Origin: Naegleria gruberi
Taxonomy: Eukaryota
Length of the DNA: 45,328 nt
Assembly: GCA_000004985.1 (NCBI GenBank)
Contig: GG738941.1
Strand: one strand, 5' to 3'
The notes beneath the pieces were generated by a model. It saw nothing but the letters and a program-made list of their open reading frames with translations, was not told where the DNA came from and did no database searches. The position numbers and the translations under genes were made by a program. Below, piece by piece: positions 7,467 to 45,300 of this stretch (the first letter of the stretch is position 1; the number at the start of each line of letters is the position of its first letter).

Positions 7467-7516
7467 NNNNNNNNNNNNNNNNNNNNNNNNNNNNNNNNNN
7501 NNNNNNNNNNNNNNNN
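7467..7516. other. Assembly gap (50 N, typical scaffolder spacer)
   Basis: Exactly 50 n between the satellite and the second CCCAAA array. Confidence 1.
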
Positions 7517-7899
7517 CCCAAACCCAAACCCAAACCCAAACCCAAACCCAAACCCAAACCCAAACCCAAACCCAAACCCAAACCCAAACCCAAACCCAAA
7601 CCCAAACCCAAACCCAAACCCAAACCCAAACCCAAACCCAAACCCAAACCCAAACCCAAACCCAAACCCAAACCCAAACCCAAACCCAAACCCAAACCCA
7701 AACCCAAACCCAAACCCAAACCCAAACCCAAACCCAAACCCAAACCCAAACCCAACCCAAACCCAAACCCAAACCCAAACCCAAACCCAAACCCAAACCC
7801 AAACCCAAACCCAAACCCAAACCCAAACCCAAACCCAAACCCAAACCCAAACCCAAACCCAAACCCAAACCCAAACCCAAACCCAACCCAACCCAACCC
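7517..7899. repeat. Second telomere-type (CCCAAA)n array, ~63 units, same orientation as array 1
   Basis: Almost perfectly homogeneous CCCAAA. There is one CCCAA variant near 7755, and the inner end degenerates to cccaacccaacccaaccc before unique sequence. The array abuts the gap on its 5' side. Confidence 0.9.
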
Positions 7900-20400: not shown

Positions 20401-20461
20401 NNNNNNNNNNNNNNNNNNNNNNNNNNNNNNNNNNNNNNNNNNNNNNNNNNNNNNNNNNNNN
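8434..20461. other. Assembly gap (12028 N)
   Basis: Run of n. The ORF-track entries 8384..20509, 8410..21597 and 8421..20465 are artefacts spanning it. Confidence 1.
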
Positions 20462-21539: not shown

Positions 21540-24500
21540 GTTGATTTATCGATTCCTCTTTGTTCACAGTCAGTATTATTAAAACAAGCAGGTACACAAA
21601 CTTTTTGGTATGACTCTCCGGTAGGATCTGAAGTGCATGATGTTAAATATTTGTTATTATTGGATAGAGTTTGACAGCTGTCATCAGTCCAACATCCTCT
21701 AAGGTGTCCACATTTACCTGAATTACAACTTGGTAAAAGAGGATTCTTCTTAGTACAATAGTCAGAAATTCCATTTTCACTACATTCTTCAACGCAATAT
21801 CCATACAAAAATACAGCCGGATCAGTTTGACATCTTGGAGAAGTTTTTTGACTAGCACAATCACTGTCACTGTGACAGACAATACTACACTTTCCATCCG
21901 TACATTTTGGTAATGCATAGTTAGTAGTACATTCAAAATCGTATTGACATGCAACATAACCACATAAACCTTCTGAGCTACAGAGTGGTTTTTCAGGATC
22001 GAGAGTTTTACAATAAGAATTGGATGAACATTTTACAACACATTCGGTTCCATCCCAAACATATCCAGAGGCACATTTCATACAAGTAATTCTATCTTCA
22101 CCACAAACATCGCATTGGGTAGTGTTACCTGTAACACAGGATTTTACACACTTACGATATTCAGCAGTATTGTTTGGATTTGAACCGCATCTCTCAAAAC
22201 CAAATTCTTTACAATTGGTATGATTAGTACATTCAACTTCACAAGTACCAATATTAGTACATTTGGAATAATGATACGGATAACAATCAGAAGTGGCAGA
22301 ACAGCTTACACTGGAACAGTTAAAGGTTGTGAGATCACATTTAGGTGTTCCAGTAAATGGAGAGTCACAATCAGCATTACTTTTACAATTCTTGTACAAA
22401 CATCTGTGATAGGTTTCAATATTTGTCTTATCAGAACCACACTCAAAGTATTTACTACTTCCAACTGGACAATCCTTACTTTCCAAACATTCATTTCTAC
22501 AAATTGAATTATTACATTGAGAATATCCATAACTTTGACATTGGGTGTCATTTGCACAAGAGTACATTTTACAGCCACCATCGGAACAATAATGTTTTCC
22601 AATTGAGGTACAATTTTCATTTGATGTACATTCAGGAACACATTTTCCGTAACTGCCATCAGCACTCATTTTACATTTTGGTGTTGGTGAACTACATTGG
22701 CTATCTTGCATACATTCAGCAACGCATCTACCTTTGTAAGTGACATAGATGTCAATATCGACACATTTTGGGAAGTTTGGATCAGTACAAGGTGAAGCAT
22801 AATTTGGCCAACAAGTATCTTCGCGACACCATTTATATGAAGTAACGGTGGTATCGTATTCAGATTCTCTTGTAGTTCCACAATATTTCTTTCCATAAAT
22901 AGGACAATCACTAGTTGTTTCACAAAGTCTTCTTTCACATGTTTTACCTTTGAATCCTAAAGGACAAACACATGTTTCACTTCCGTCCTTATAGTGGAAA
23001 CATGTACCATTGTTTTCACAAGTTAAGGTTGAACAAGGAGTTTGAATTTCACAATATTGTCCAGAATATCCATTTGTACATGTTGTACAAGTATTATAAC
23101 CAGTACACTTTCCTCTTCCTGAACAAACTCTTTTTGAATCCAAGGCAGAAATACCATTACATTGGTCAACACAAGTGTTTGGAGCAATGCACATCTTTGT
23201 TCCATTACAAACACTAGCATTATTGGAAGGAATTCCATCACAAATTGGAATTTCACAATTTGATCCTGTCCAGGTTTCATTACAGCTACAATCATCATTA
23301 TCAACACAAGCACCACGACCAGAACAAACAGAAGCATTATTCGAAAGAATGGAGAAACAACTGAAATCTGAGCATTCACTACCATAGGCTCCTTCATTAC
23401 ATGAACAAACATTATTTGCTGTACAATTACCAGAACCAGAACATACAGAGCTATTACTTTGAGAAATTCCAAAACAAACCGGCTCAGTTACATTACAATT
23501 ACTTCCTTTCCATCCAAGATTACAATAACACTTATCAGTACAAACACCATTACCAGAACAAACCAATGTGCTTGTGCTTGGAATACCTGAACAACTTGCA
23601 AGACATACTTCCTTTGAGTGTTCGTAAAAACATACATAATTTGATGAGGCACAAGTTGTATTAACACAAGGAATTGATAATTCACAATTAACCCCATATC
23701 TACCATAATGGCATGAACAATTGTTCATTGAAACACATGTTCCTTCTCCAGAGCAAACATTAGCATTGGAAGCTGGAATCTTTGAACAAATAGGTTCACA
23801 AGTATTTGGTCCAATGCATTTAGCATCATTACCAAACATAGTACAACCAGCACTTCCATAACAAGTATAATTTTGACACATATTTCCAGTATATCCATCT
23901 TGACATGAACACATATCTGGTTTAACACATGTTCCGTGACCACTGCAAACAGCAGAGCTTAAAGAGCTGTTTCCATAACAGGAATACTCAGTGCAATCAT
24001 AACCACTATATCCAGGAAGACATGAACACTGTGTTAACTCCAAATTTAATTCTACATTAGTGTATCTACTACAATTACCACCATTACATGATAAATAACT
24101 AGCTGCTGGAACACCCTCACAAATAAGAGAGCAAGTTGCTTGATCAATATAGGTTTCAGAAACACATCCCTTTAATTGGGCAATATTGATATATTTAAGC
24201 TTGTTGTCAAAGAAATACAAATCATTTCCATAAAAGAAAATATCAAGAATATCAGAACCAGCCCCTCCAAAAACAACCTGAGAGAAGCTGCCACCAGAAA
24301 ATTTGCTAATTTGTTGTGCACCATATGTGTACAGCTCTCCAGCTGGATTGAATCTGAAATAAGAACCTGGACAACTCTCAGCTACTAACGTAGCACCACT
24401 TGCTTGACCAGGAGTCCAACTGTAAAGATCGGAATTCAAATGATACAATTTACCATTAAAATAGCGCAAAAATCCAAGAGCATAATCAGTTGATTCAGGT

Positions 24501-26647
24501 TGAATAGTTATTTGACTACCAGAATCAGTAAATTTACCAATTTTCCCTGACATTGAAACATAATATGTGTCAGTTTCAGGAACATATGTAAGAGATGTAG
24601 CTAAAGGAGGTCTACCAACAGTACCAAGATAAGTGGATGTTTTAGAAGTAAAAGAATACTTGTAGACATCACCATCACACAAGTACACCAAATCTCCAAA
24701 CTTGTTAAACAAAATGGATATTGAAGGATAGCAATCTAAATTAGAAATAAATGTGGTGACATTTCTTGTTGCCAAATCAAAAGCAAAAACTGACTTGTCA
24801 GCTACTGCTGAAGCATAGATAACACCATTGGAATAGACGAAAGCAGAGGCTTTGAGTTCAGCCAAACCAAGAGGTCCATAGAGTGGGAAAAGATCAATAT
24901 CAGTACGTTTTTCACATTGAGAACCTCCATAACCACTGTCACATGCACAATTGTTTTGAGAAATACATTTTCCTTTTCCTGAACAAACTTTTGGATCAGA
25001 AAAAGCTAATCCATAACAAGTGTCATAAGCCTTTGAACAATCAGAGCCATAGTGAGCCTTATCACAATAACAAAAGTCCTGTGCAACACAGACACCATGT
25101 CCAGAACAAACACTCGAGTTGAAATTGTAAACTCCATTGCATTTGTGAACACAAGTTTCAACTCCCTTCAAATAAAAACACTCTCCACCACAACCCATGT
25201 TTGATACACACGGTTTGAGGAATTCACAATTATTTCCAATAAAACCAAAGGAACATGAACAATTATTTTGTGAGCTACATTCTCCTACACCTGAGCAAAC
25301 AGAAGCACTTGATGCACCAATAGAATTGCATGTGTGTTCGCATGTATCTTGTGCAATACACTTGACCTCGAATCCGTGCTCGCTACATGCTAGAGGATTT
25401 TTATGAGCAATGTTGGAACAGTTGAATGGAGCAATTTCGCACTCAGGTCCATCCCAATCACCCTCACATTCACATATATCCACATCAATACAAACACCAC
25501 GACCAGAGCAAGCATTACTAGAAGCATTCTTACCAAAACATGGAATAACTTCACAATTAATACCACTTGTTCCAGGCTTACACGCACAACCAACAGTTTC
25601 GTTTTGTGAGGTTCCATTTTGTGGTAAGAATTCACTACATTGACCAACACCAGAACAAACATGTGCATCCAATCTACTCAATCCATTACAAACAATATCA
25701 CATGTGGTGTGATTAATAAACGCTTGATTCATACAACCTGAAGGAGTCAACTTTCTTGTAGCACTTCCTTCAGCTACATAAATGTTACCAAATTGATCGA
25801 AATCCAAACTAATTGGAGAAGCATCAGCAGAAAGAGCAGGACCATCATTACCAGTAACTCCAATAGTGCCTGTACCAAATATACGAACCTCCTTTGAACC
25901 AACAAGTCTGAAAACACCATCATCAGTAATCAAGAAAATAACACCAGATGGAGAAACTCTAAAGTTGGTATATTTAGTAGAGCTCAAAGTTATGAAATCA
26001 GTAGCCGAAGAGACACTTTCATCTTTTCCCCATATCTTGATTTTGTTATCCAATAACATGTAGAATTTGTTGTTGAACAATTGCAACTTTGCATTTGAGG
26101 TTTGGCTTATAAAGATTTGAATGCATGAACTAGGATAGTTAACAGATGAACAGAAAGAACCTGTTCTTTTACCATTAATACCATCACCATCACGAATTTG
26201 AATGAAATAAAGAATGTCTGTTGTTGGATCATAAGTGATTGATCTGACAAAATCTGACATGGACCACTTGGAAGTTTCTACGAGAATAGTTCTTTGATAG
26301 TTATGCAGAGAGAAGAGGAAAACATCAGTTTGCCCAAGCTCAGGCATAACAATTACATCTCCATTCTTGTTGATAATAAACTGGTCAAAATTGAGATTAC
26401 TAACCGAACCAAGGCTAGAAATAGAGTTAGAGCCATCAAGTACCTTGAAAGAAGTACCATCGCTAATGACCATCTTTTGGTTCCATGGCAAAACTGAATT
26501 ACCATAGTCGCAAACCTTAGAAACTGTATAGTTGAAATAGCTTCCACACATGGTGGGGCTATCACAGACATATGCTTGAGATGTCGTTGTAGCAAAACAT
26601 GCCCACAACAACAAGCTCAACCACAAAACAAACTCTGCCTTGGCCAT
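21497..26647 (-). CDS. Large secreted multidomain protein: signal peptide; beta-propeller/NHL-like region 1 (~25740-26570); EGF array 1 (~24910-25740); beta-propeller-like region 2 (~24140-24910); EGF array 2 (~22940-24140); 4-Cys repeat region (21497-22940)
   Basis: A 5151-nt uninterrupted ORF with a true ATG at 26647 in 'aaaaaaaatagATGgcc' context. N-terminus MAKAEFVLWLSLLLWACFATTTSQA|YV is a classic signal peptide. Dozens of 6-Cys EGF units of the form C[FY]GIxxxxxxVCSG[HR]GxCxxxxxCxCxxGYxGxxC. Repeats such as DFDQFGNIYVAEG and DILDIFFYGNDLYFFD are NHL/YD-like. Confidence 0.85.
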   Translation of the reverse strand: MAKAEFVLWLSLLLWACFATTTSQAYVCDSPTMCGSYFNYTVSKVCDYGNSVLPWNQKMVISDGTSFKVLDGSNSISSLGSVSNLNFDQFIINKNGDVIVMPELGQTDVFLFSLHNYQRTILVETSKWSMSDFVRSITYDPTTDILYFIQIRDGDGINGKRTGSFCSSVNYPSSCIQIFISQTSNAKLQLFNNKFYMLLDNKIKIWGKDESVSSATDFITLSSTKYTNFRVSPSGVIFLITDDGVFRLVGSKEVRIFGTGTIGVTGNDGPALSADASPISLDFDQFGNIYVAEGSATRKLTPSGCMNQAFINHTTCDIVCNGLSRLDAHVCSGVGQCSEFLPQNGTSQNETVGCACKPGTSGINCEVIPCFGKNASSNACSGRGVCIDVDICECEGDWDGPECEIAPFNCSNIAHKNPLACSEHGFEVKCIAQDTCEHTCNSIGASSASVCSGVGECSSQNNCSCSFGFIGNNCEFLKPCVSNMGCGGECFYLKGVETCVHKCNGVYNFNSSVCSGHGVCVAQDFCYCDKAHYGSDCSKAYDTCYGLAFSDPKVCSGKGKCISQNNCACDSGYGGSQCEKRTDIDLFPLYGPLGLAELKASAFVYSNGVIYASAVADKSVFAFDLATRNVTTFISNLDCYPSISILFNKFGDLVYLCDGDVYKYSFTSKTSTYLGTVGRPPLATSLTYVPETDTYYVSMSGKIGKFTDSGSQITIQPESTDYALGFLRYFNGKLYHLNSDLYSWTPGQASGATLVAESCPGSYFRFNPAGELYTYGAQQISKFSGGSFSQVVFGGAGSDILDIFFYGNDLYFFDNKLKYINIAQLKGCVSETYIDQATCSLICEGVPAASYLSCNGGNCSRYTNVELNLELTQCSCLPGYSGYDCTEYSCYGNSSLSSAVCSGHGTCVKPDMCSCQDGYTGNMCQNYTCYGSAGCTMFGNDAKCIGPNTCEPICSKIPASNANVCSGEGTCVSMNNCSCHYGRYGVNCELSIPCVNTTCASSNYVCFYEHSKEVCLASCSGIPSTSTLVCSGNGVCTDKCYCNLGWKGSNCNVTEPVCFGISQSNSSVCSGSGNCTANNVCSCNEGAYGSECSDFSCFSILSNNASVCSGRGACVDNDDCSCNETWTGSNCEIPICDGIPSNNASVCNGTKMCIAPNTCVDQCNGISALDSKRVCSGRGKCTGYNTCTTCTNGYSGQYCEIQTPCSTLTCENNGTCFHYKDGSETCVCPLGFKGKTCERRLCETTSDCPIYGKKYCGTTRESEYDTTVTSYKWCREDTCWPNYASPCTDPNFPKCVDIDIYVTYKGRCVAECMQDSQCSSPTPKCKMSADGSYGKCVPECTSNENCTSIGKHYCSDGGCKMYSCANDTQCQSYGYSQCNNSICRNECLESKDCPVGSSKYFECGSDKTNIETYHRCLYKNCKSNADCDSPFTGTPKCDLTTFNCSSVSCSATSDCYPYHYSKCTNIGTCEVECTNHTNCKEFGFERCGSNPNNTAEYRKCVKSCVTGNTTQCDVCGEDRITCMKCASGYVWDGTECVVKCSSNSYCKTLDPEKPLCSSEGLCGYVACQYDFECTTNYALPKCTDGKCSIVCHSDSDCASQKTSPRCQTDPAVFLYGYCVEECSENGISDYCTKKNPLLPSCNSGKCGHLRGCWTDDSCQTLSNNNKYLTSCTSDPTGESYQKVCVPACFNNTDCEQRGIDKSTVGVYPTCEIQMQG

Positions 26648-30590: not shown

Positions 30591-31778
30591 ATGTCTTCTT
30601 CACCACCATCATACACCCTCAGTTTGAAAATTCATTCAGGATTTAATTTACCAAAGACTGACCTTCTTTCAGGAATTGATGCTTATTGTGTGATTCATGT
30701 TCCATTGTTGGGAGGAAAAATTGAAAAATTTAAAACCAAGTCTATAGATAATAATCCAAATCCCGAATGGAAGTTTGCCTTCTTTATTACTAATGTTGAT
30801 TCATCAAAGGATATTTTCGTGGAAGTGTGGGATAAGGATACTTTTAGTAAGGATGATCTTGTTTGTAGGGCTTATTTGCCATCAGCTCTTTTATTGAAGG
30901 AAACGTTTTGGGATCAAAAGAAGTTTGTTTTGGAATGTTTAGGAAAGAACAAGCCATACAAGGCAAAGGAATGTGGAATTGTTGTCTCTGCCATCCCACA
31001 AGTTTCATTCTCTGAATTAGTTGCTCGAGTTAAAACTCCTACAAAATATGTTGATGAAAATAAGATGGTTCTTGTCCATCAATTAACTGGTATCTTTAAT
31101 GACTCACTCTACTTGAAAGTCTCAGTTAATAAGAAGTTTAACATTTCAATTTTCGATACAAGTAAGGATCCAAATAGATTGACTATTTTCGAAGTGGAGG
31201 GAAGAAATATCGGATCAAGAATTTACAAATATAAGGTTCCAAGAACAAAGTATGGAATTACATTCTCAAAGAAGATTAGGTTGAAGAGATGCGATCCTTA
31301 CTCTCTTGTTAACTTGAAGCTATCACTAGGTGATTTGAAATTGGACGAATCAAAGATTGTAAACACACTTGTTCAAGAACATGGATGGTTTGGATTCCTT
31401 TCTTTTGAAGATGCTTGTGCAAAACTCAAAAACATTTCAATAGATAAGGAAAGAAAGAGAATTTACATGAATGAATTTCTCTACTCATACATGGTTGATT
31501 ATGATTCCAAAAACTTTGATCAAAAGGTTTTCCTGAGAGAAGAGGCAGCTAAACAAGGCCACCACTTGGAATTCATTTTTGTAGATGGTGATAATTTTCA
31601 AATAACAAGTTATAATGAACAACCAATCACTTTGAAATGTTCTGAGGAAAAGTTTAAGTATACATCTAAGGTTAACGATTTAGAATATGGTACATCATTC
31701 TATCAATTCAAAATCAATACTTACAAGAAGGAAAACCATAAATTGTTCAATCTTGGAGAAAATTATCTCAAGTTGTAA
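30591..31778 (+). CDS. C2-domain protein (395 aa) with a possible SH2-like segment in the C-terminal half
   Basis: ATG in 'caacaaaaaaATGtct' context. The N-terminal ~110 aa match C2 domain features (LSLKIHSGFNLPKTDLLSGIDAYCVIHV...NPNPEWKFAFFI...IFVEVWDKDTFSKDDLVCRAYLP). WFGFLSFEDACAKLKN is a weak match to the SH2 N-terminal W[FY]xGxLSRxEAExLL. Confidence 0.8.
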   Translation: MSSSPPSYTLSLKIHSGFNLPKTDLLSGIDAYCVIHVPLLGGKIEKFKTKSIDNNPNPEWKFAFFITNVDSSKDIFVEVWDKDTFSKDDLVCRAYLPSALLLKETFWDQKKFVLECLGKNKPYKAKECGIVVSAIPQVSFSELVARVKTPTKYVDENKMVLVHQLTGIFNDSLYLKVSVNKKFNISIFDTSKDPNRLTIFEVEGRNIGSRIYKYKVPRTKYGITFSKKIRLKRCDPYSLVNLKLSLGDLKLDESKIVNTLVQEHGWFGFLSFEDACAKLKNISIDKERKRIYMNEFLYSYMVDYDSKNFDQKVFLREEAAKQGHHLEFIFVDGDNFQITSYNEQPITLKCSEEKFKYTSKVNDLEYGTSFYQFKINTYKKENHKLFNLGENYLKL

Positions 31779-33422
31779 ATAAATTAAAATAAATATTTTT
31801 CAAAACTTATTATTTTAAATTGTGTAAAAAATAGGACGAGATGAATTGTGGAAGCAATTGATGGAGTTATGGAAAATAATTTTGTGTGGATGTGGAGATG
31901 AGGATAGGCATGAGGATGGTTTTGATGGATGAGTGTATTGGAAAGTGAATTGAGGAGATTGAAGACAATTTTTAAATTTTGAAAATTGTAATTATTACTT
32001 GATGGAATGATAACATCTTTTATGATGGAATAGGATGATTAGATGATATTCAAGTGTATCCGAGGTTATTATTGCAACAAGATTTCCATCAAAATTATAA
32101 TTTCATTATTTTCTTCATCATGTTACATAATTTAAATTCATCACCGGATATCAAAATGTTGCTAATCATCGATAGTATCATTGTGGAAAGTCTCATCTTG
32201 TCTCTATGAATCTAAATAGAGTTTGAGAAGAAAGTAAAATTCACCATCAAACAATGCAGCAACAATTAGTAGTCAATCATTGAACAATAATAATTTATAA
32301 TCACTATTTTGATGTGAATTAAACAAGAGGAGAGCATGTTGAATTTTTACCCTTTCTTCTAATATTAAATTCTCATGATGGTGATGAAGAATAATTATCC
32401 AAACATGATAAATTGCATTGAGTGTTGGTATAGAACATTTCCATTCAATCATTCATCTTCATATTGAATATCCATGGAAATAATAAATAATTTCTATCAG
32501 GACATATGTTTTTGTTGGTGAATTAATTCTTTTGCTTTCTGTGATGAAAAAATTATTGACGAGTTTTTGATTGCAAGAAAAGTGATGAGTGAAATTTGAT
32601 GAAAAAATTAGTTGAAAAATATTGAGAAAAATTTCATCACTTTTAATAATTTACATCATTGATGATTCACAAAGGCAATTCTTCATAAATTCAAAAACCA
32701 TTTTCAACACAACATGATTGGATTATATAGAGTGTATATGAATTGATTTTATTGGATTTTACAATGAAATACAAATTTTAAAAGGTAATGATTAAATTGA
32801 TGGAAAATTTTGTTAAAGTGGAAAATTAAAAGTCACATCATCTATTAGTATTCAACATGAATATAACAATCAAATAGATGCAATTGTTTTTCAGCAAGAA
32901 TATTTTCATCAATTTATTAATTTTAATATTTTCATCATGAAGAACATTATTCACAACAAGAAGAATATTATTAACATGTTCTAAATCATTACTAGTATCA
33001 CCTCAGAAACTTTCAAAACTTTCCATCCAGCGTTGATGAAGAGTTGGAAGATGAAAGTATTCAGCTTAGAGTGAAAAACATCATTTGGAAAACTTGTTCA
33101 ATTTGAAGAGGAGGTACAAGATTTGTTATTGTATCACATCAGAAAATGTATTTTGACAATGTTTTTCGAATAATTTGTAATGATGGTCAAGTTGAATTTT
33201 TACATGCTTCCTAACATTAACTGTTCATCATCTACTTGATCAATCTTCATCACGACAATAATAAATACATCTATAGGATGTTATCTAACATTACAATTCA
33301 TCTTGTTGTTTCACTTTAAAAGATTGTCAAGAAATTCAACAAGTCTCACACCCAATAAGATGCCACCAGCAAACCTTTCCAGACTTTTTATTATTTATAT
33401 TTGAAATTTTTAGATATTGAAT

Positions 33423-33541
33423 GGCTACGGCCATATCACGATGAATGCACCTCATCCCGTCCGATTTGAGAAGTTAAGCATCGTCGAGCCACATCAGTAC
33501 TGAGGTTGGAGACAACTTGGGAACCTGTGGTGCTGTAGTCT
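33423..33541 (+). rRNA. 5S ribosomal RNA gene (~119 nt)
   Basis: GGCTACGGCCATATCAC...CCCGTCCGATTTGAGAAGTTAAGCATCGTCGAGCC...AGTACTGAGGTTGGAGACAACTTGGGAACCTGTGGTGCTGTAGTC aligns position by position with eukaryotic 5S consensus (CTACGGCCA, CCGTC-GAT, GAAG--AAGCA, GTCG-GCC, AGTACT, TGGGAGAC, TGGGAA, GGTG-TGTAG). The 5' GGCUACGGC pairs with the 3' GCUGUAGUC to form helix I, with two G-U pairs. Confidence 0.9.
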
Positions 33542-33551
33542 TTTTCATTTT
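33541..33551 (+). terminator. Pol III-type T-run terminator of the 5S gene (TTTTTcaTTTT)
   Basis: A T5 run immediately after the 5S 3' end, followed by a second T4 run. Confidence 0.5.
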
Positions 33552-33867
33552 ACCTTATGGATTATTTAATTATGATATTGATCGCAACCACAAGTTTCTC
33601 TTTCTAAAAACATCAAATTTAAATTTGATAAATATATGACAATTATCAAGCTTTTATAAACAACAAACTTACTGAACCAACAATCAATAGATTCGTTGCC
33701 TTCACTGTTCATACAGTCAAAGACTGTAGCGGGATTGTCGTCATATTCCTGGCAGGCTTCCCGTCTATTACATCATAAAGCGAAAATTTTAATGTGAATA
33801 ATGCCCAACCATTTGCAACGACTCAGTTGAAAAAGAACCAATTTGTTGTGTAGCAAACTTTAAAAAA

Positions 33868-35557
33868 ATGATCACACAACCAAACCATTCCATCACATCA
33901 AAAGTCACTGAAAATATCCTATTCTCTGATGATGCACTTTTTGAAATTTTATCTTTTCACAATGATTTTACATTTATTGTAACCAGTTGTGCATTAGTTT
34001 CGAAACAGTGGTTTAATGTCATTAAATATAATTGTAAACACCTCTCCATATCATATTATGGTGATCGGGAAATGGTTGGTCAATTTTTGGAAAATATTGC
34101 ACCTTGGAGTGAGAATGAATGAAGAAATTGGATTTAATTTACAGGTTTTGGATTCGATGAAAGGATTGAAAAAACTCAATTTAGAATACAATAATAATAT
34201 TGATCCAAACGGAATTAAGTATTTAGGCTCACTGAAACAATTGACTGATCTCAATATATCTTGTTGTTACATTGGATTGACTGAGAATTTGAGTTATTTG
34301 ACATTATTGAAAGCACTAACTCATCTTGATATAGCGAGTAATAATATTAGTGCAGAAGGAGCCAAATGCATTGGTGAAATGAAGCAATTGGCTAATCTTT
34401 CTATTGGTTCCAATGATATTGGAACAGAAGGAGCCAAGTATATTGGTGAAATGAAGCAATTGAAACAACTTCATATTGCTAATAATAATATTGGCCCAGA
34501 AGGAGCCAAGTACATTAGTGGTCTTGAACAATTAACTTATCTTGATATCTGTTTAAATGATATTAACGAATATGGAGCAAAGTGTATTAGTTAATTGAAA
34601 CAGTTGACTTACCTTGATTGTGTTGGAAACCGTATTTGTGATGGTGGAGCTAAATTTATAAGTGAAATGAAACAATTAACTAATCTTAATGTTCGACATA
34701 ATGATATTGATGAGGAGGGAGCCAAGTATATTAGTGAATTGATGAATGTAAGCACACTTGATATTAGTGGTAATTCTATTAATAAGAGGGGAGCCAAGTA
34801 TATTGGTGAAATGAAACAATTAACAGATCTTGGAATGTATTGTTGTAGCATTGGAGTGGAAGGAACAAAATATATTTCATCATTGAATCAATTAACTCAT
34901 CTTTCTATCAACATAAATAATATTGGGGATGAAGGAGCCAAGTACATTGGCCAAATCAAACAATTAACAGATCTTAGCATATGTGATAATAAGATTGGAA
35001 GTGAAGGAGTAAAATATATTGGTCAATTGAAAAATTTACTTAAACTTTACGTTTCTTGCAATGAGATTGGAGATAATGGAGCTCAATTTATAAGTGAAAT
35101 GAACCAATTGACTAAACTTGATATTTCGAGTGTTAATATTACACCAATAGGTATAAAATATATCAGTAAAATGGAGCATTTAATTGACCTAATGATTAGT
35201 GATAATAATATTGATTCGATGGGCGCAAAACATATCAGTCAAATGAAATTAACAAGTCTTGAAGTCTATAACAATACCATTGATGTTGAAGGAGCTAAAT
35301 ATCTAAGTGAAATGGAACAATTAACTAATCTTGAGATATCTAAAAATGAAATTGGTGACAAAGGTGTACAATTCTTAAGTGGAATGAAGCAATTAACCAG
35401 CCTTGACATAAATGAAAATAAGATAAGCGACGTGGGAGCCAAATATATTCTGGAAATGAAGAATTTGATAGATCTGAGTGTATTTGACAATGAGATCAGT
35501 GAGGATATAATTGAACGTTTAAGAGAAATGAAACAGTTAACTTATCTTGATATTTAA
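33868..35557 (+). CDS. F-box + RNI-type LRR protein locus, disrupted: F-box segment 33868..34122 (frame 1), LRR segment 34016..34591 (frame 2), in-frame TAA at 34592-34594, LRR segment 34595..35557; intron and/or pseudogene
   Basis: ATG at 33868 in 'ttaaaaaaATGatc' context. F-box motif ILFSDDALFEILSFHNDFTFIVTSCALVSKQWFNVI. There are then >20 tandem ~24-aa LRRs of type LTxLDISxNxIGxEGAKYI[SG]EMKQ. The LRR frame is +1 relative to the F-box frame. TAA 34592-94 sits where every other repeat has a GAA/CAA/GGA-type codon, the following TTG is in the same frame, and the repeat register continues across it. Confidence 0.6.
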
Positions 35558-36385
35558 AATAGGAAAATCTTTTATGTAATATACTTTTTCTTGAACCTTT
35601 GAAATGACAAAATGAAATCTATTCCACAAATGGATTTCTTTCTGTCTATTTGTAAACTCTCAAAGTGTGGTGAAATAAGTGTCACATCAGATCGAGAACT
35701 TTTCCTAATGGGCCACAAAATAACGACTTGTAAACTTTGCCAATAATCTTTTTCACTTTCGAATAACTCCTGGTTACCATGTGACACATTTGATGTTTTA
35801 AATAAATATTCAATCAAAAAAATCTTCATCACATGTAGCAGCAATTCCGCGTAAAATCTATAAATTTGTTTCCCATGACTTGTTCTTCATTAAATAATAA
35901 TATTAATTGTCAATATGGCAATGATGATAGTGATGAATTTTTTTAATTAAAATTACATTTGATTATTCAACATTTAAAGCGGTTCATCCTTCCGATTTAT
36001 CAACAATTAATTTTAAAAGGAGCACATACACATTATTGCGTAATGGCAAAAGGTCGACCAATTTTATCTGAACGAACGAGTTGTTGGGTTGTCTGCAAAC
36101 TATTACGATTCTCTAAAAACAGTGAGTTGCACTACAACTACCAATTATATCAGGCCGAACTCATCAATGAGAACCCTTCTTCCTGTTGGCTGTAAAGTAA
36201 TTCTTCCAGGAAAAACAGCTCGAGTGGGCGCCTTAATAACACAATAATAAGGAAACTGATGTTACACTTCAATAGAGATATTTGAAAAAACAACAAGACT
36301 CATCTTCTGTCTGACTAGTGAGAAATTACTCTCTTTTGAATTATTAAGCCCTGTAGTAGTTTCAAAGTAGTGGTAGTAATATAGC

Positions 36386-39300
36386 ATGACAATAACAACA
36401 ACAGGGAAGGTGTCATTAAGGGAAGGAGAAAACATGATGATGAAAATTCTACCTTCTCATCATCACCACTCTAAGAAATTTCACATGTTAAATTATACAT
36501 CATCAACAACAACTGTTGGCATTATTATTGTGGTGCTTTTTATGCTACTTATTAGTATGCATCTAATCACTTGTAGTTTTACTTGTAATTTTATTGACGA
36601 ATCAGATACATTGAATGTTTGTTCAGGAAATGGAACATGCATAGCCGATGATGAATGCCAATGTAATTCTGGCTTTTTGGGCAATAATTGTGAATATGTA
36701 CAGTGTTTTGGAATAAGTAATGAGATGGTACAACAAGTGTGTAATGGGCATGGTATTTGTATCGGGCCAGATGTTTGTTTATGTGACTATAATTATCAAG
36801 GTGAATCATGTAACCAAACCATACCAACACAACCAACACAACCTACGACGATAACATGTTTTGGAGTGGAAAAGAATACGCCAAATGTTTGTTCAGGTAG
36901 AGGAAGTTGTTCCCAACAAGATTTGTGCTCTTGCTCAGCTGGATTCAATGGACATAGATGTGAGAAGGACATTTTCGCTGGTTACAAACTGGTTTCGAGC
37001 TCAAATTTGATTATTGCTAAAAATTCAGAGACAAATGTAAATTTAACAGCCAGTATTGCAGCTACAGAAATAGTCCTCTCCTCAATTTATGGCTACGAAC
37101 CAGTAGCTTACATTCCACAAGGACAAGCCACTATTACCACAATCGATCCAAATGATTTGAATAACTTTGCTGGATTACTCTACAATGAGACTGAAAAGAA
37201 GGTTATTGAATTGTTTTCTCTTCCGTGTACTCAACAAATTTCAAATCCAGATACAGATATGAGTCGATTGATTGTTGTAAAACATGGTGGTGTCTATTGT
37301 ATGGATCAAGGTTGGAGAGTTGATGGTCATACTTTTGTAATTGTTGGAACTGAGACTGTAGTTTTCAAATTACCATTTGCTGTCTACACACAAGCCACCT
37401 TTTACTATTTGGAATGTGCTTCATATAGAAATGTATTTTGGATAACCTATGATGGACAAGTGGAGAGAACATCATTTTCAGGAAATGTTCATGGTACTAT
37501 TATTGGAATTGAATCAGGTTTTGATGTTTCTGATATTGTTTATGGATCTGTATGGTATTGGGGAAGATCCTCTCAAATTATGCTTTTTGAGGCAACATTT
37601 ACTGAGCCAATAACTTTCAATCAGGAGGAGCCATACTTTAGAGATGAATGTGCCAGAACTTATTGTTTTGGAATTATATCGAGTGATAATTCCAGTTGTA
37701 ATGGAAGAGGACTTTGTGTTGCCAATAATACGTGTCTCTGTAATGAGGAATCTTATGGCGACGAGTGTTCATTCTATGCATGTAATGGAATTACTGGAGA
37801 TGGATTTGGAGTTTGTACTGGACACGGAGATTGTATCGCCACAGACACTTGCTCCTGTCGTGATAATTATAATGGAACTTGGTGTGAGTGGACTACATGT
37901 GCTGGAATACCAAATACTGAATCAGAAGTTTGTAATAGCAGAGGTTTATGTTTGGATCACGATTCTTGTTCATGTGATCCCCAATTTGGATATGGAGGAG
38001 CAAATTGTGATATTCCAGTTTGTAATGGAGGTGTTGGAACTTGTACAGGATCTAGAGGTGTTTGTACAGCTCCTGATGTTTGTTTATGCTCTCCTGAATT
38101 CTTTGGTGAGTTTTGTGAAAAATCATTTTGTTATGGTATTGCCTCAAATGATAGTTCTGTATGTTCTGGTGGTCATGGTACTTGTCTGAATACAGATACA
38201 TGTGTTTGTCATGATGGCTACATGGGAACTTTATGTGATGGTTTCACATGTATGGGCTTTACCAATAATGACTCTGCAGTTTGTTCAGGAAGAGGATCAT
38301 GCATTGATGCCAACATGTGTCAATGTAATAATGGATTTACTGGTTCTAATTGTGAAATTTCAACTTGTTATGGTATTTCCAGTATTAACTCTTCATTTGT
38401 TTGTAGTGGAAAAGGAATTTGTACTGGTGTTGATACTTGTGTGTGTCAAAATAATTACACTGGTTACATGTGTCAGGAAACAACATGTGATGGTATTGAG
38501 TCAACCAATGAAACCGTTTGTAATGGACACGGCTCTTGTTTTCCTAAAGACAAATGTAATTGTCTTATTGAATTCGTTGGAGAAAAATGTCAATATCCAA
38601 CTTGCTTCGGTATTTCAGCACTAAATGAAAGTGTTTGTGGTGGAAGAGGAAATTGTACAGAATTGAATGAATGCAATTGTACAGAGAATTATTTGGGAGA
38701 GGAATGCCAATTGACAACTTGTAATGGAGTACCGTCAAATAGTTCCTTCACTTGTGGAGCACATGGACAATGTCTTGACTTTGATACTTGCCAATGTGAG
38801 GATTATTACTTAGGATCTTTTTGTGAAGAATTTGAATGTTTTGGAGTGTCAACCCATTCTTCATCTGTTTGTTCAGGAAGAGGTACTTGCTTAGCTTTTG
38901 ACAGCTGTGCTTGTAGTCCAAGTACATTTGGTGGAAATTGTGAATTTACTCGTTGTAATGGAACTATCAATACAGATCCACATGTGTGTAATGGATTGGG
39001 TTCATGTATTAACCCTGAAGTTTGTGTTTGTGTTCCAAATTATTTTGGTGATTTTTGCGAAGTAACAACTTGTGGTGGAGTTCCATCCAATTCCTCAAAC
39101 GTTTGTAATGGGCATGGTAGTTGTATTTCATTTAATACATGTATCTGTGAGGAGCTTTTTGCTGGAGCCACATGTGAAATGTTTCAAAACGATATATTTG
39201 CAGGATACAAATTAATTAGTACGAATCCAGTTTTGGTCAAGACTAATCCTTCCAATTATGCTCTCCTCAATGCCTCAATGTTGATTCCTTCAATGAATGC

Positions 39301-42300
39301 CAGCTCGGGTCAATACATTTATATATCCAATAAGAATGCAGTAATTACCAATACTAATTCAACGATGGGAAGTTGGATTCTCAGTAAGGCCATGTTACAA
39401 GTTAATTCTTTAGAAAAATTAGCATGTACTGTGAATGTAACTAATCCAGCAACATATTTTGGGACTAAAATTGTCATCAAACATGGTGGAGTTTATTGTT
39501 TCCAATCATCCAGTTGGACATTGACTTCAAGTCAACAATTTATTATTATTGGAACAGAGCCTGTAATTTTCAGAGCGAATACAATCACTTCCACTGGTCC
39601 TTCATTCACATATCTTGAATGTGCGTCATTTAGAAATGTTTTCTGGTTCACTTATGGTGTAAACTCTACAACTTCAACTTTTAACGGAACTGTTCATGGA
39701 ACTGTAATAGCCAAAGGTGGAAGTTTGAGTATTGGTGGAAGTGTTCAAGGTACTGCCTGGTATGTTGCCAATACTAACACGTTCAATCCAACTTTGATTA
39801 ATGCAAGATTTGCTACTCCAACCACCTTCTCACCATTTGATCCATACATAACATCTTCTTGTGATTATACCACTTGTTACAATATTAAATCAACTAATGG
39901 TTCAGTATGTTCTGGAAAGGGTTCCTGCACTGATTTAGATACATGTGTTTGTCAAACAAACTCATACGGAACTGATTGTTCTCTATACAAATGTAACGGT
40001 ATTCTAAGTAGCTCTGCATTTGTGTGTAGTGGACACGGAGATTGTGTTAATCCAAATACATGTTCTTGTGATTTACATTACAATAATACTTATTGTGATG
40101 AAACTTCATGTAATGGAATTGAGAGTACTGATCCATATGTGTGTAACTCAAGAGGTCAATGTAAAACCTTTAACAAATGTACTTGCAATACTGCCCTAGG
40201 TTTCGGTGGAGACAATTGTGATATTTTCTTGTGTGGTGGTGTTTTGGCTACTAGTGCATCAGTTTGTTCTGGGCATGGTGAGTGTACAGCACCAAATACT
40301 TGTGCATGTGCTGACCATTATTCAGGAACCTATTGTGGAACTACAAGTTGTTTTGGAATTTCGAGTGGAGATTCGAGTGTTTGTTCTGGAAATGGACGTT
40401 GTTCGTCTTATGACACTTGTACTTGTAAAACTGGATATTATGGATCGGATTGTTCCAATTATAATTGTTATGGAATTAATAAGGATGATTCAAAAGTTTG
40501 TGCTTCCCATGGTGAATGTATAGATTACAATAATTGTAAATGCCAAGATGGATATTTTGGTTCAGATTGTTCCATGACCAAATGTTTTGGAATTTTAAGT
40601 AATTCTACATTGGCATGTTCATCAAAGGGTACTTGTACAGCACTCGATACCTGTACTTGTATATCAAATTACACAGGTAGCCAATGTCAAGAAACTACCT
40701 GTAATAATATTCCTTCGACAGATCCAAATGTTTGTAATGGACATGGTAAATGTTGGCCATTAGAGACTTGTACATGTAGTGCTTCATCTGGATATACTGG
40801 AAACTATTGTCAATTACCTATTTGTTATGGCTATTATTCTACTCATGCCTCAGCATGTACTTCCCAAACAAGAGGACAATGTATTGCTCCAAATAATTGT
40901 TCTTGTGCAGAGCATTATTATGGAACTATTTGTGAAAAAACAACTTGTAATGGTGGAGCTTCTGATTACTTTTTAACTTGTTCTAATCATGGTTTGTGTA
41001 CAGCATTTAATACATGTACCTGCGCATTTGGTTATTCAGGATCTGATTGTGAACTTTATGGATGTAATGGTATATCCAGTTTGTCAAATAACACATGTTC
41101 AGGTAATGGAGTGTGTCGTGGGTATAATTGGTGCTCGTGCAAAAGTGGATATATTGGAAATTATTGTCAATTGACAAGTTGTAATGGAATTCAAAGCGAC
41201 TCAGCAAGTGTTTGTTCTGGTAAGCACGGAGACTGTATAGCTTATGAAACATGTGCCTGCCATGAACATTATTGGGGAACTGATTGTGAATTCACCACGT
41301 GTAATGGAACAGTCAACTCTAATCTGACCTATGTGTGTAGTGGACACGGAAAATGTAATGCCTACGATAAGTGCACTTGTGATTTTGATTATGATGGTGA
41401 CTGGTGTGAAAATTACGTGTATGACAATTTTGCTGGTTACAGGGTTGCCATAAAAGACAATATACGAATTTCCTATCAAAAAGATTTGCCATTTGCAGCA
41501 AATGTTAACTCCTATCCATTTTATAGAGTAGATTCCACAAAAGGAGTACCTTATTACGTTGGTAATGCAAACTTTACTGAGGCACTCTCTACTCAACTCA
41601 TTCATGAAAAGGCAAGCACACACTTTTATAGAAATTACAAAATGGGTAGCTGTAAATGGATATATGATATCGAAAATCCCTTTGTAGTTAGGAATGGTGG
41701 TGTTTTTTGCTTATCCTCCTCAATGTATCTTTCTCCAAGTAACAAAATTGTAATTATTGGCCCAGAGCCTGTAATTTTTATTATCCAAAGTGGGTACTTG
41801 ACATACATTTATCCAAATATAATATTTGCAGAATGTGCTTCGTACAGAAATTTAATATTTATGGTTTGGAGTAGGATATATGTTACTCGTTGGAATGATT
41901 GGACTGGTTGGTACTCTTATTGGTCCACAGTAACTAGTGTAATTACTGGTGGACCTTATGGATCTAATTTACCACCTATATCTGCCACTTTCTTTGGTAT
42001 GGATGGCTATTTTGAGTTCCATGGAAAGTTTGCTGGTTTAATTGTGAACAGTAGATATATTCAATTCTATGATGTTAGTTTAGAAGAGCCTTATTCTTTT
42101 GATAGATATGAACCATACATTACAGAAGAGTGCCTTAATTTGACCAATTGCTTTAATATTTATTCCAATAATGAAACTGTTTGTACAGGAAGAGGAAGTT
42201 GTATAGATTATGACGTTTGCACTTGTAGAGATATTTCATATGGTAAAGATTGTTCCATTTCCAAGTGTAACGGAATCATGGGAAATTTGACCAGTGTTTG

Positions 42301-45300
42301 TAGTGGACACGGAAAGTGTACAGATCATGACGTATGCACATGTGATACTCACTATTATGGAGAGTGGTGTCAATATACAACTTGTAATATTTATAATAAT
42401 ACGGAGCCAGAAGTTTGCAATAGTCGTGGTGTATGTCCACTCTATAATAATTGTACTTGTGACTTATCTTATGGATACACTGGATATGATTGTGAAACAC
42501 CAATATGTTACAATTACACGGCCACAAATTCTAAAGTTTGTTCTGGACATGGTAGTTGTTACCTTCCAGATTCTTGTAATTGTAGTGATTTATATTTTGG
42601 AGACAATTGCGAGAAAACTTATTGTTATGGAATTGAATCCAATTCCTCAATGGTTTGTACTGCACGTGGTCGTTGTTGGCCTTACAATACCTGTAATTGT
42701 ACAACAGGTTATTATGGCGTTTCATGTGCTGAATATAATTGTTTTGGTATTAACAGAAATAGCTCACTTGGCTGTAGTAATAGAGGTACCTGTTCCAATA
42801 TCAATACATGTGATTGCAGAGATGGATATTATGGATCCAATTGTTCAGTTTCTAAATGCTTTGGTGTGTTCAGTAATTCATCATTGACATGTAATGGATT
42901 GGGTACTTGTAAAAATACTAATAATTGTACCTGTACCACAAATTACTTTGGTTTAAACTGTAATGAAACTTATTGTAATTCAGTCAAATCAACCAATAGT
43001 TCTGTATGTACTGCACGTGGTCAATGTTGGCCATATAATAATTGTACATGTTCAACTGGTTACACTGGATTATGGTGCCAAATTGGTATCTGTTTTGGTG
43101 TGAATGGATCTAGTCCTTCAACTTGTAATGGTCTAGGATCATGTTTAAGTTATAATAACTGTAATTGTTCAAAGAATTATTATGGAGATAATTGTAATGT
43201 AACTACTTGTAGTGGAATACTTTCTAATAACACAAAAGTGTGCTCAGGAAGAGGTTCATGTTGGCCTTATAATAATTGCACTTGTAAGGCAGGATATTTT
43301 GGATCTAATTGTGAATTGGATTATTTTGCTGGTTACAAATTTGAAACCACCTATACTGGACAATATAAATTTACAGCAAGTGGTAATTCTGTAATCACAA
43401 ATACCACAACCACAGCCACAGGACAGAATTTAGTTACCTCTTTGGGAAGGAGAATTGCTGAACTTGCAGCAATGCCTTGCACATATACTATTTCAAATCC
43501 AACAACTGAATTAGGAAGAAAGATCTTAGTTAGAAATGGAGGAGTTTATTGTATTAGTAACAGTTGGACAATTGATGGACAAACTTTTACAATTATTGGT
43601 ACTGAGCCAGTTGTTTTCAAAATGAATAATCTCAAATATTCTAGTGCTATTTTCAATTATATTGAATGTGCTTCTTATAGAAATGTATTTTGGCTACCAA
43701 ATGATGCAGTTGGCTACAGTAATTTTACAGGTACAATTCACGGCACGGTAATTACAAGTAGTGCAAACATTGATTATTGGATTAATGCAGCTGATGTTCA
43801 AGGTGCTTTTTGGTTCTATTCACCAACTTATCAAGGAAAGACCTACCTTAAAGATTCTAAATTTGGAGTACCTTATACATTTGACCAAAGTGTAATGACA
43901 CTCGACAGCAAATGTAATTATTTCACATGCTTCAATATTACTTCCAACAAGAATTCTACTTGTGCAGGAAAGGGTAAATGTGTTGATTTTGACACTTGTG
44001 TTTGTAATCCAAATACTTATGGAAAAGATTGTTCTATTTCCATTTGTAATGGAACCTTTGGTAATTACTCAACTGTATGTAGTGGACATGGTAGCTGTAT
44101 TTCACAAGACAAGTGTTCTTGTAGCTATGGTCATAATGGTACTTGGTGTCAATATACTTCCTGTTCAGGATTACCTGCCTCTTCACCACTTGTTTGTAGT
44201 CAACGTGGTGTATGTGAATTTTACAATAATTGCACTTGTAATTCAACTCTGGGTTATGGCGGACCTAATTGTGATACTCCGGTATGTAATGGATTGGTTG
44301 GTTTATGTAGTGGTCTTGGAAGAGGTCAATGTCTCTCACCAAACACTTGTTCTTGTAATGCACATTATTATGGTGAATTTTGTCAGTTTACAACCTGTTA
44401 TGGAATTGAATCTAACAATGTTTCAAAAGTTTGTAGCGGAAGAGGAATTTGTTCTGCATATAATAATTGTACATGTAGAGCTGGTTTTATTGGAAATCAA
44501 TGTGAATATGATGTGTTTGCCGGTTACAAACTTGTCAGTAATCAACCTCCTTTGCTTCTCAAAAATTCAAAGATAAATGCTCCGTTGGTTGCTGGTATTG
44601 TTGTTCCTTCACAAAAAATCAATCCTCCAAGCTTATTATATCCAGATAAGGTTTATCCCTACACTGCTCAAGGAAATGCCATTATTACAACTCCTACAAG
44701 CGTTAATGGTTCACTAATCATGAAAGAACTTTCAAAGAAAGTAGTTGAATTACAGAACCTACCTTGTGATTACATTATCAACAAGCCAGATACGGAAATG
44801 GGTCAAAAAATTGTGATTGAATTTGGTGGAGTGTATTGTTTCAAAAATGGTTGGACAATTAATGGACAACAATTTATCATTGTCGGAACTCAACCTGTTG
44901 TTTTCAAGGTTCCTTACTTGAAATATTTGGGAGCTACTTTCAAATATTTGAAATGTGCATCTTATAGAAACGTTTTTTGGTTCCCTAATTTCTATGGAGT
45001 CGGTTTCACTGGTAAATTACTAACCAATACATTTTCTGGAAATGTTCATGGAACAATTGTTGCAAGATATGGTTATGACTTTATGATTGCCGATAATATT
45101 CAAGGATCTATTTGGTTCTATACTACAGAAACTGGTTATGTAACGTTGAAAGAAGCAAGATTAAGTACTCCAATCACTTTCAATCCACTACTTCCATATG
45201 AACAAGAGGTTTGCAATACTTTCACATGTTATGAAATTGAATCTAGTGCAAATAATACTTGCTCAGGAAGAGGTCGATGTGTTGATTACAATAATTGTCA

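What the first reader, a model, noticed from the sequence alone, without database searches (positions are those of the whole stretch)
33423..33551. Solitary chromosomal 5S rRNA gene in a protein-coding neighbourhood
The 5S sequence and structure are clear, with helix I and a T-run terminator. It sits alone 330 bp upstream of an F-box/LRR gene. It is not in an rDNA unit or a tandem 5S array. In Dictyostelium discoideum, 5S is carried on the extrachromosomal rDNA palindrome, so a dispersed subtelomeric copy would be a notable difference if this genome is dictyostelid. Alternatively, it could be a 5S-derived retro-copy or pseudogene.
Basis: partly seen in the sequence, partly recalled or inferred. 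Interest (0 to 1): 0.5.

Follow-up and report, generated by a model that had tools for sequence, protein, structure and literature searches.

The report
Ordinary dispersed Naegleria 5S rRNA gene
This is a real, intact 5S ribosomal RNA gene, but the scaffold comes from the amoeba Naegleria gruberi, where about 279 such genes are already known to lie scattered among protein genes, and this copy is already in a published list, so it is ordinary.

Summary
Rfam places a full-length 5S rRNA at window 33423-33541 (+) with 105.4 bits against a gathering score of 38. All 34 consensus base pairs are canonical. A T5 run follows the gene, a TATA-like element lies at -31 to -22, and it is the only RNA gene in the window.

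The dictyostelid interpretation does not hold. The window is the whole 45,328-bp scaffold_97 of the Naegleria gruberi JGI assembly. A 2012 survey (PMC3369914, Table S1) lists 279 nuclear 5S genes on 117 scaffolds. One row, R33695 (scaffold_97:33426-33542), is this gene, and it falls in the modal similarity class. By that table's coordinates, 198 of 279 copies have no other copy within 10 kb, so a solitary 5S is the norm in this genome. The Naegleria rDNA plasmid carries only 18S, 5.8S and 28S.

A Naegleria-clade metagenomic contig carries a 5S that differs at 1 of 119 nt, also solitary beside a protein gene. Its orthologous loci in relatives lack a 5S. I found no hallmarks of a retrocopy, a SINE or a pseudogene.

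Verdict: a probably functional Pol III gene of a known dispersed family. It is already known and of low interest.

The parts
33423..33541 (+). 5S rRNA gene (119 nt). It is one member of the dispersed nuclear 5S family of Naegleria gruberi, listed as R33695 in PMC3369914 Table S1 (scaffold_97:33426-33542).
   Evidence: Rfam RF00001 at 105.4 bits, full length. All 34 consensus pairs are canonical. The structure is supported by 13 compensatory pairs across 12 related sequences. The Table S1 row was read.
33392..33401 (+). TATA-like element TATTTATATT at -31 to -22 from the first base of the gene. It is a candidate upstream Pol III promoter element (inferred).
   Evidence: PMC3369914 reports a TATA box upstream of N. 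gruberi 5S genes. It has not been tested functionally.
33472..33479 (+). Box A-like internal control element AGTTAAGC (+50 to +57).
   Evidence: It matches the pattern N(G/C)(C/T)(C/T)AANC quoted in PMC3369914. These columns are invariant in alignment A1.
33502..33519 (+). Box C-like internal control element GAGGTTGGAGACAACTTG (+80 to +97).
   Evidence: It is the best match in the gene to NNGRTGGGNGWCCNYNNG, with 2 mismatches. The assignment is an inference.
33541..33551 (+). Pol III terminator region: T5 (33541-33545) followed by T4 (33548-33551).
   Evidence: Read directly from the sequence. Every related metagenomic copy except L013 has a T3-T4 run directly after the same 3' end.
33868..35557 (+). 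Context only: the downstream LRR gene, with an F-box-like N-terminus. It has one short GT..AG intron at about 34107-34143 and an in-frame TAA at 34592-34594.
   Evidence: Pfam LRR_6 E 2e-20 and F-box E 0.047, sub-threshold. ORFs were listed. The stop codon was checked.
7517..7896 (.). Context only: a (CCCAAA)n telomere-type array, the nearer of two. The other lies at 2-424.
   Evidence: Tandem Repeats Finder. TTTGGG is the candidate telomere repeat of N. gruberi in PMC3622300.

Best explanation
The feature is one ordinary, probably active copy of the nuclear 5S rRNA gene family of Naegleria gruberi. In this organism the 18S-5.8S-28S genes sit on a multicopy circular plasmid. The 5S genes are chromosomal and scattered, mostly one at a time, in intergenic spaces between protein-coding genes.

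Mechanism (inferred from the sequence and from general Pol III biology, not shown experimentally). RNA polymerase III is recruited through the internal control region, box A at +50 and a box C-like element at +80. The TATA-like element at about -30 probably assists by positioning TFIIIB. Transcription starts at or near G33423 and stops in the T5 run at 33541-33545. The 119-nt RNA folds into the canonical three-way junction of five helices and enters the large ribosomal subunit.

Its position 327 bp upstream of an LRR gene, and about 26 kb from a telomere-type array, is incidental.
For: Shown:
- Full-length Rfam 5S match at 105.4 bits.
- All 34 consensus pairs are canonical in this copy.
- The structure is supported by covariation across 12 related 5S sequences: 98.7% of cells paired, 13 pairs with compensatory changes, and 0/500 shuffles reaching the covariation score.
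- Organism: Naegleria gruberi.
- This exact locus is listed among 279 N. gruberi 5S genes as R33695, scaffold_97:33426-33542. Its similarity value of 0.75 is shared by 161 of 279 rows.
- 198 of 279 listed copies have no neighbour within 10 kb, and the copies lie on 117 scaffolds.
- The Naegleria rDNA plasmid encodes only 5.8S, 18S and 28S (PMC5805870).
- A Naegleria-clade metagenomic contig, seen in two independent assemblies (L005/L020 and L019), has a 5S that is 118/119 identical. Its neighbouring protein is only 52-58% identical to its named relatives, so the 5S sequence is under strong constraint.
- Box A, the TATA-like element and the T-run terminator are present. PMC3369914 also reports an ICR and a TATA box for N. 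gruberi 5S genes.
Against: - No expression data could be consulted, so activity of this particular copy is inferred.
- I could not retrieve the other N. gruberi copies. Identity with the family consensus therefore rests on the shared similarity class in Table S1, not on an alignment.
- This copy has U at position 24 in loop B, where all 11 related sequences have A. The position is weakly conserved in Rfam (lower case in the consensus), but the change could be private to this copy.
- Box C matches the quoted consensus with 2 mismatches.
- PMC3369914 found no TFIIIA in N. gruberi, so the exact factor requirements are uncertain.
Confidence: 0.85

Rival explanations
1. It is a silent or decaying copy: a structurally intact 5S gene that is not transcribed or not used, for example because of subtelomeric silencing, a weak promoter context or a private substitution.
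For: It lies about 26 kb from a telomere-type array. U24 differs from the A found in all 11 related sequences. The downstream LRR gene carries an in-frame stop, which fits a decaying subtelomeric neighbourhood. Table S1 of PMC3369914 contains roughly 18 clearly degenerate or partial copies, so pseudogenes exist in this family.
Against: No helix pair is broken and the match is full length at 105 bits. Box A, the TATA-like element and the terminator are intact. It belongs to the modal similarity class of 161/279 rows. Position 24 is a loop position that varies across eukaryotes.
Confidence: 0.11
2. It is a 5S-derived retro-copy or SINE: an RNA-mediated insertion of 5S sequence rather than a gene duplicated as DNA.
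For: 5S copies are not syntenic between relatives. The ABHD11-like gene next to the 5S in L005 has no 5S beside it in N. lovaniensis, Willaertia magna or two other relatives. Flanks of the window copy and the L005 copy are unrelated. Both observations fit some form of mobility.
Against: There is no A-rich tail, no flanking target-site duplication and no 3' extension of non-5S SINE body. The gene ends in its own T-run, and the homology starts exactly at helix I. A TATA-like element sits at the expected -30 position, which a retrocopy would not bring along.
Confidence: 0.02
3. It is an assembly artefact: the scaffold is chimeric with rDNA, or the 5S is a collapsed fragment of an unassembled 5S array.
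For: The scaffold is poorly assembled upstream. It contains 17.4 kb of N in three gaps and two telomere-type arrays in the same orientation.
Against: The 5S lies inside about 24.9 kb of gap-free sequence (20462-45328) with unique protein-coding genes on both sides. There is no other rRNA sequence in the window. The same solitary arrangement is seen in metagenomic relatives.
Confidence: 0.02

Closest known systems
Naegleria gruberi nuclear 5S rRNA gene family (279 putative genes; PMC3369914, PLoS One 2012;7:e36878, Table S1)
   Same: This is the same object. Row R33695, scaffold_97:33426-33542, is this gene, offset by 3 nt at the 5' end and 1 nt at the 3' end. It shares the modal similarity value and the reported ICR, TATA box and T-run terminators.
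   Different: Nothing substantive. The paper's BLAST-derived start misses the first three bases of helix I, which the Rfam model places at 33423. The paper scores 'tandem arrangement: yes', but its own coordinates show mostly solitary copies: minimum spacing 364 bp, and 198/279 with no neighbour within 10 kb.
Scattered 5S genes of Neurospora crassa, Schizosaccharomyces pombe and Acanthamoeba castellanii (reviewed in PMC1635290)
   Same: There are many single 5S genes scattered through the chromosomes, each with its own flanks and unlinked to the large rDNA. An upstream TATA-type element plus internal control region is typical of these organisms (the last point is from my own knowledge).
   Different: The lineage is different (Heterolobosea). 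In Naegleria the large rRNA genes are not chromosomal at all but sit on a circular plasmid.
rDNA-linked 5S genes of Dictyostelium discoideum and Saccharomyces cerevisiae
   Same: Only the RNA itself is shared.
   Different: In those species the 5S lies inside the rDNA repeat (PMC1635290). Here no other rRNA is in the window, and the Naegleria rDNA plasmid lacks 5S.
Dicistronic tRNA-5S genes of Yarrowia lipolytica (PMC2566860)
   Same: The 5S genes are scattered, and the case for TFIIIA-independent expression has been raised.
   Different: There is no tRNA gene anywhere in the window. This 5S has its own box A, box C-like and TATA-like elements.

Membership tests
5S rRNA (Rfam RF00001) | The covariance-model score reaches the curated gathering threshold over the full model. 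| tested here: met
   105.4 bits against 38, model positions 1-120, not truncated.
5S rRNA (Rfam RF00001) | A three-way junction with helices I-V, all base pairs formable. | tested here: met
   34/34 consensus pairs are canonical. The MFE fold gives the same architecture. Covariation across 12 sequences gives 13 compensatory pairs.
Functional eukaryotic 5S gene (Pol III type 1 promoter) | An internal control region: box A, intermediate element and box C. | tested here: inconclusive
   Box A AGTTAAGC at +50 matches exactly. The box C-like element at +80 has 2 mismatches to the quoted consensus. The intermediate-element pattern is too degenerate to be informative. PMC3369914 reports an ICR in N. 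gruberi 5S genes.
Functional eukaryotic 5S gene (Pol III type 1 promoter) | An oligo-T terminator directly after the 3' end. | tested here: met
   T5 at 33541-33545 and T4 at 33548-33551.
Functional eukaryotic 5S gene (Pol III type 1 promoter) | The gene is transcribed and its RNA is incorporated into ribosomes. | not testable with these tools
   No RNA-seq or ChIP data are available here.
Dispersed (scattered) 5S gene family | Many copies at separate chromosomal sites with unrelated flanks, neither in arrays nor in rDNA. | tested here: met
   There is one copy in the window. Re-analysis of Table S1 gives 279 copies on 117 scaffolds, 198 of them without a neighbour within 10 kb. Flanks of the window copy and the L005 copy are unrelated. 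I could not align the other N. gruberi copies themselves.
rDNA-linked 5S (Dictyostelium/Saccharomyces type) | The 5S lies next to 18S/28S genes within one repeat unit. | tested here: not met
   There is no SSU, LSU or 5.8S hit in the window even at E<=1. The N. gruberi rDNA plasmid encodes 5.8S, 18S and 28S only (PMC5805870).
Tandem 5S array | Head-to-tail repeats of gene plus spacer. | tested here: not met
   There is a single copy, and no tandem repeat around it.
5S-derived SINE or retro-pseudogene | A 5S-like head followed by an unrelated body and an A-rich or LINE-like tail, flanked by target-site duplications, often truncated or degenerate. | tested here: not met
   The 5S is full length and ends in its own T-run. 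There is no A-tail and no convincing flanking direct repeat.

The most novel reading that the evidence does not exclude
The 5S genes of Naegleria may move or turn over through a DNA-level mobile mechanism, with this copy being a recent subtelomeric insertion. Three observations are compatible with that:
- An imperfect 29-nt inverted repeat (33393-33421 / 33596-33624, 23/29 complementary) brackets the gene. Only 1 of 200 mononucleotide shuffles scored as well.
- 5S positions are not syntenic between Naegleria-clade relatives.
- A short motif, TTGAAATT..TAGA, is shared upstream of the window copy and the L005 copy.

A weaker variant of the idea is that 5S transcription in Naegleria does not need TFIIIA and relies on the upstream element.
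Probability: 0.05. Interest if true: 0.35.

Novelty: already known. Interest (0 to 1): 0.08.

Why it matters
It matters little. The gene is a routine annotation item that the protein-centred annotation of this old draft assembly leaves unmarked.

Two small points of wider use came out of the check. [quoted passage not shown] That is not strictly true, because the 5S genes are chromosomal. Also, the coordinates published in 2012 show a scattered organisation of the Neurospora/S. pombe/Acanthamoeba type, not a tandem one, although that paper's summary table says 'tandem'.

Tried and rejected
**Fetching other N. gruberi 5S copies.** I therefore made no direct alignment with the other 278 copies.

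**Scans with a 54-nt Naegleria-specific 5S pattern.** The prokaryotic genome collection and the viral collection both gave no hits.

**Full-text search for the 5S sequence string in papers.** No hits.

**Synteny test.** The ABHD11-like gene beside the relative's 5S (L005) was traced to N. lovaniensis, Willaertia magna and two unnamed relatives. None of these loci has a 5S. This argues against positional conservation but yielded no further copies.

**Retrocopy hallmarks.** I looked for target-site duplications and a poly(A) tail and found none.

**Inverted repeat bracketing the gene.** It is nominally unusual (1/200 shuffles), but the shuffle was mononucleotide in AT-rich DNA. It is absent at L005, and the arm sequence occurs nowhere else in the window. 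I treat it as probably chance.

**Weak SNORD38 hit at 32536-32604.** It scores 25.5 bits against a gathering score of 44, with E 0.8. I regard it as chance.

**Dictyostelid origin.** Rejected on protein identity, on the TTTGGG telomere repeat and on the scaffold coordinates.

Full report
**1. The observation**

The Rfam scan of the whole window finds exactly one family above its gathering score: 5S_rRNA (RF00001) at 33423-33541 on the + strand. It scores 105.4 bits against a threshold of 38, with E 3e-22, and covers model positions 1-120 without truncation. A permissive scan at E<=1 adds only a sub-threshold snoRNA match, SNORD38, at 25.5 bits against 44. ARAGORN finds no tRNA.

I projected the Rfam consensus structure onto the sequence. 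All 34 pairs are canonical, including the 9-bp helix I formed by GGCUACGGC and GCUGUAGUC. The minimum-free-energy fold reproduces the same three-way junction (-41.5 kcal/mol, z = -2.6 against dinucleotide shuffles).

The gene is followed directly by TTTTT (33541-33545) and then TTTT (33548-33551).

An ATG at 33868, 327 bp downstream, opens a gene with a strong LRR match (Pfam LRR_6 E 2e-20). Its N-terminus resembles an F-box only below threshold (E 0.047).

**2. Where the sequence comes from**

The C2-domain protein encoded at 30591-31775 is 100% identical over its full length to an NCBI 'predicted protein [Naegleria gruberi]'. That protein's only contig is 45,328 bp long, which is exactly the window length.

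The window begins with a (CCCAAA)n array (2-424) and has a second one at 7517-7896. TTTGGG is the candidate telomere repeat reported for N. gruberi (PMC3622300).

The organism is thus a heterolobosean amoeboflagellate, not a dictyostelid.

**3. What is already known about 5S genes in this genome**

PMC3369914 (PLoS One 2012;7:e36878) searched the JGI Naegr1 assembly by BLASTn. It reports 279 putative 5S rRNA genes that are not located with the rDNA units. It also reports an internal control region, an upstream TATA box and T-run terminators, and no recognisable TFIIIA.

Its Table S1 contains the row 'R33695 | scaffold_97 | 33426 | 33542 | 0.75'. This is the present gene, offset by 3 nt at the 5' end and 1 nt at the 3' end. 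The window is therefore scaffold_97, and this copy is already catalogued.

I re-entered the table and analysed it:
- The 279 rows lie on 117 scaffolds.
- 161 rows share the similarity value 0.75, the same as this copy.
- 235 rows are 117 nt long.
- 57 copies are alone on their scaffold.
- 198 of 279 have no other listed copy within 10 kb.
- The median nearest-neighbour distance among copies that share a scaffold is 22.6 kb.
- The smallest spacing is 364 bp, and only 4 copies have a neighbour within 1 kb.

The family is scattered, with some loose clusters of two or three at 1-3 kb spacing. There are no regular arrays, although the paper's summary table says 'tandem: Y'.

The N. gruberi rDNA plasmid encodes a single copy each of 5.8S, 18S and 28S (PMC5805870; see also PMC10586121, and PMC11075319, abstract). 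A 5S gene outside the rDNA is therefore the rule in this genus. A solitary chromosomal 5S is the expected state here, not an anomaly.

**4. Related sequences from elsewhere**

A metagenome scan with a 30-nt stretch spanning helix III and loop C returned 13 contigs. Each carries a single 5S.

*The closest relative.* One contig, L005 (Ga0247722_10036048), has a 5S that differs from the window copy at one position, U24 to A. The same locus with the same sequence is present in an independent ENA assembly, L019. The gene next to it is an ABHD11-like hydrolase 165 bp away on the other strand. That hydrolase is 58% identical to an N. lovaniensis protein and 52% identical to a Willaertia magna protein. 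L005 therefore comes from a Naegleria-clade amoeba that is not N. gruberi. Near-identity of the 5S alongside such protein divergence shows that the window sequence is under strong constraint.

*No shared flanks, no synteny.* The flanks of the two copies are unrelated. The orthologous hydrolase loci in N. lovaniensis, W. magna and two unnamed relatives contain no 5S. Copy positions are therefore not conserved.

*More distant copies.* The other contigs (VFQM/VFQO and LLBY) belong to more distant organisms, with 26-32 differences. They also show single 5S genes between protein genes. In L008, for example, the 5S sits between a sugar kinase gene and an SNF2-type helicase gene.

*Covariation.* In the 12-sequence alignment the Rfam structure has 98.7% of cells paired. 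There are 13 pairs with changes on both sides and a covariation score of 0.364. The shuffled mean is 0.137, none of 500 shuffles reached the observed score, and slid partner registers give at most 0.081.

**5. Promoter and terminator anatomy**

- Box A (AGTTAAGC) lies at +50 to +57 and matches the consensus quoted in PMC3369914 exactly.
- The best box C match (GAGGTTGGAGACAACTTG) lies at +80 to +97, with two mismatches.
- A TATA-like run, TATTTATATT, lies at -31 to -22. This is where upstream TATA elements of Pol III genes lie in fungi, plants and other protists (my own knowledge).
- The likely 5' end is G33423, not T33426 as in the 2012 paper. G33423-C33425 are needed for the first three pairs of helix I.

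That these elements drive transcription is an inference. No expression data were available.

**6. Rival explanations**

*Retro-copy or 5S-derived SINE.* There is no A-rich tail and no flanking target-site duplication. Nothing of 5S origin extends beyond the T-run, and the TATA-like element sits where a promoter should be.

*Silent copy or pseudogene.* I cannot exclude this, because I could not align the other N. gruberi copies. The only oddity is U at position 24 in loop B, where all 11 related sequences have A. That position is weakly conserved in the Rfam model, so this is weak evidence.

*Assembly artefact.* The 5S lies in about 24.9 kb of gap-free sequence with unique genes on both sides, and there is no rDNA in the window.

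*Inverted repeat.* An imperfect 29-nt inverted repeat brackets the gene (33393-33421 / 33596-33624). It scores better than 199 of 200 mononucleotide shuffles. It is absent at L005, and its arm occurs nowhere else in the window. In AT-rich DNA I regard it as probably chance.

**7. Comparison with known systems and verdict**

The closest known thing is the object itself, a listed member of the N. gruberi 5S family. In organisation it resembles the scattered 5S genes of Neurospora crassa, Schizosaccharomyces pombe and Acanthamoeba castellanii. It is unlike the rDNA-linked 5S of Dictyostelium and Saccharomyces cerevisiae (PMC1635290).

The taxonomic guess is wrong, and so is the inference that the arrangement is notable. 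The finding is already known and of low interest.

The main unsettled point is whether this particular copy is transcribed. Aligning all copies and mapping RNA reads would settle it.

Noticed in passing
window 2-424 and 7517-7896 (N gaps at 1100-6455, 7467-7516 and 8434-20461): Two (CCCAAA)n telomere-type arrays lie in the same orientation on one scaffold. The second comes directly after a 50-N gap. This suggests that scaffold_97 joins two telomere-bearing contigs or haplotypes, or contains an interstitial telomere array. The true distance of the 5S from a chromosome end is therefore uncertain, about 26 kb if the inner array is the real end.
   Followed up: partly
window 6456-7466: The sequence between the first gap and the second telomere array contains several diverged copies of a repeat a few hundred bases long. 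Recurring stretches include CAACGGGTTTGAGCCACTCCAAGCTCATTTGAAACA and GTTGTGAAAAATCGACCAATCTCAATCATT. It looks like a subtelomeric repeat family. Tandem Repeats Finder did not report it at default settings.
   Followed up: no
window 34592-34594: The LRR gene downstream of the 5S has an in-frame TAA in the middle of an LRR unit (AKCIS*LKQLTYLD, where the sister repeats read AKYIGEMKQL..). The gene may be a pseudogene, or the base call may be wrong.
   Followed up: partly
window 33446 (position 24 of the 5S RNA): This copy has U in loop B, where the near-identical Naegleria-clade copy (L005/L019) and ten more distant metagenomic 5S genes all have A. I could not tell whether this is typical of N. 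gruberi or private to this copy.
   Followed up: partly
window 33401-33415; L005 upstream of the 5S (-29 to -15): A similar short motif lies upstream of the two Naegleria-type 5S genes: TTGAAATTTTTAGAT at -22 in the window and TTGAAATTATAGAAT at -29 in L005. With only two sequences in AT-rich DNA this may be chance, or it may be an upstream promoter element.
   Followed up: no
window 33393-33421 and 33596-33624: An imperfect 29-nt inverted repeat (23/29 complementary) brackets the 5S gene. Only 1 of 200 mononucleotide shuffles scored as well. It is not seen at the relative's locus, and the arm is not repeated elsewhere in the window.
   Followed up: partly
literature (PMC5805870, PMC10586121 versus PMC3369914): [quoted passage not shown] This overlooks the roughly 279 chromosomal 5S genes. 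Conversely, the 2012 5S survey marks N. gruberi 5S genes as 'tandem', while its own coordinates show mostly solitary copies.
   Followed up: yes
window 21497-26647 (-) and 36000-45328: There are large cysteine-rich, teneurin-type EGF-repeat proteins. One is a 1716-aa intron-free ORF. Further EGF-like coding sequence seems to fill the right end of the scaffold. Together with the Sel1-repeat, LRR and C2-domain genes, this is a typical fast-evolving subtelomeric gene set. The C2 protein had no homologue other than itself in the protein search.
   Followed up: no
L001-L004, L006-L012 (VFQM/VFQO metagenome contigs): An unidentified intron-poor, roughly 35% GC eukaryote in one metagenome project carries at least ten single 5S genes on separate contigs, each between protein genes. 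They show small sequence variants with compensatory changes in helix II. This is another organism with scattered 5S genes, and I did not determine its identity.
   Followed up: no
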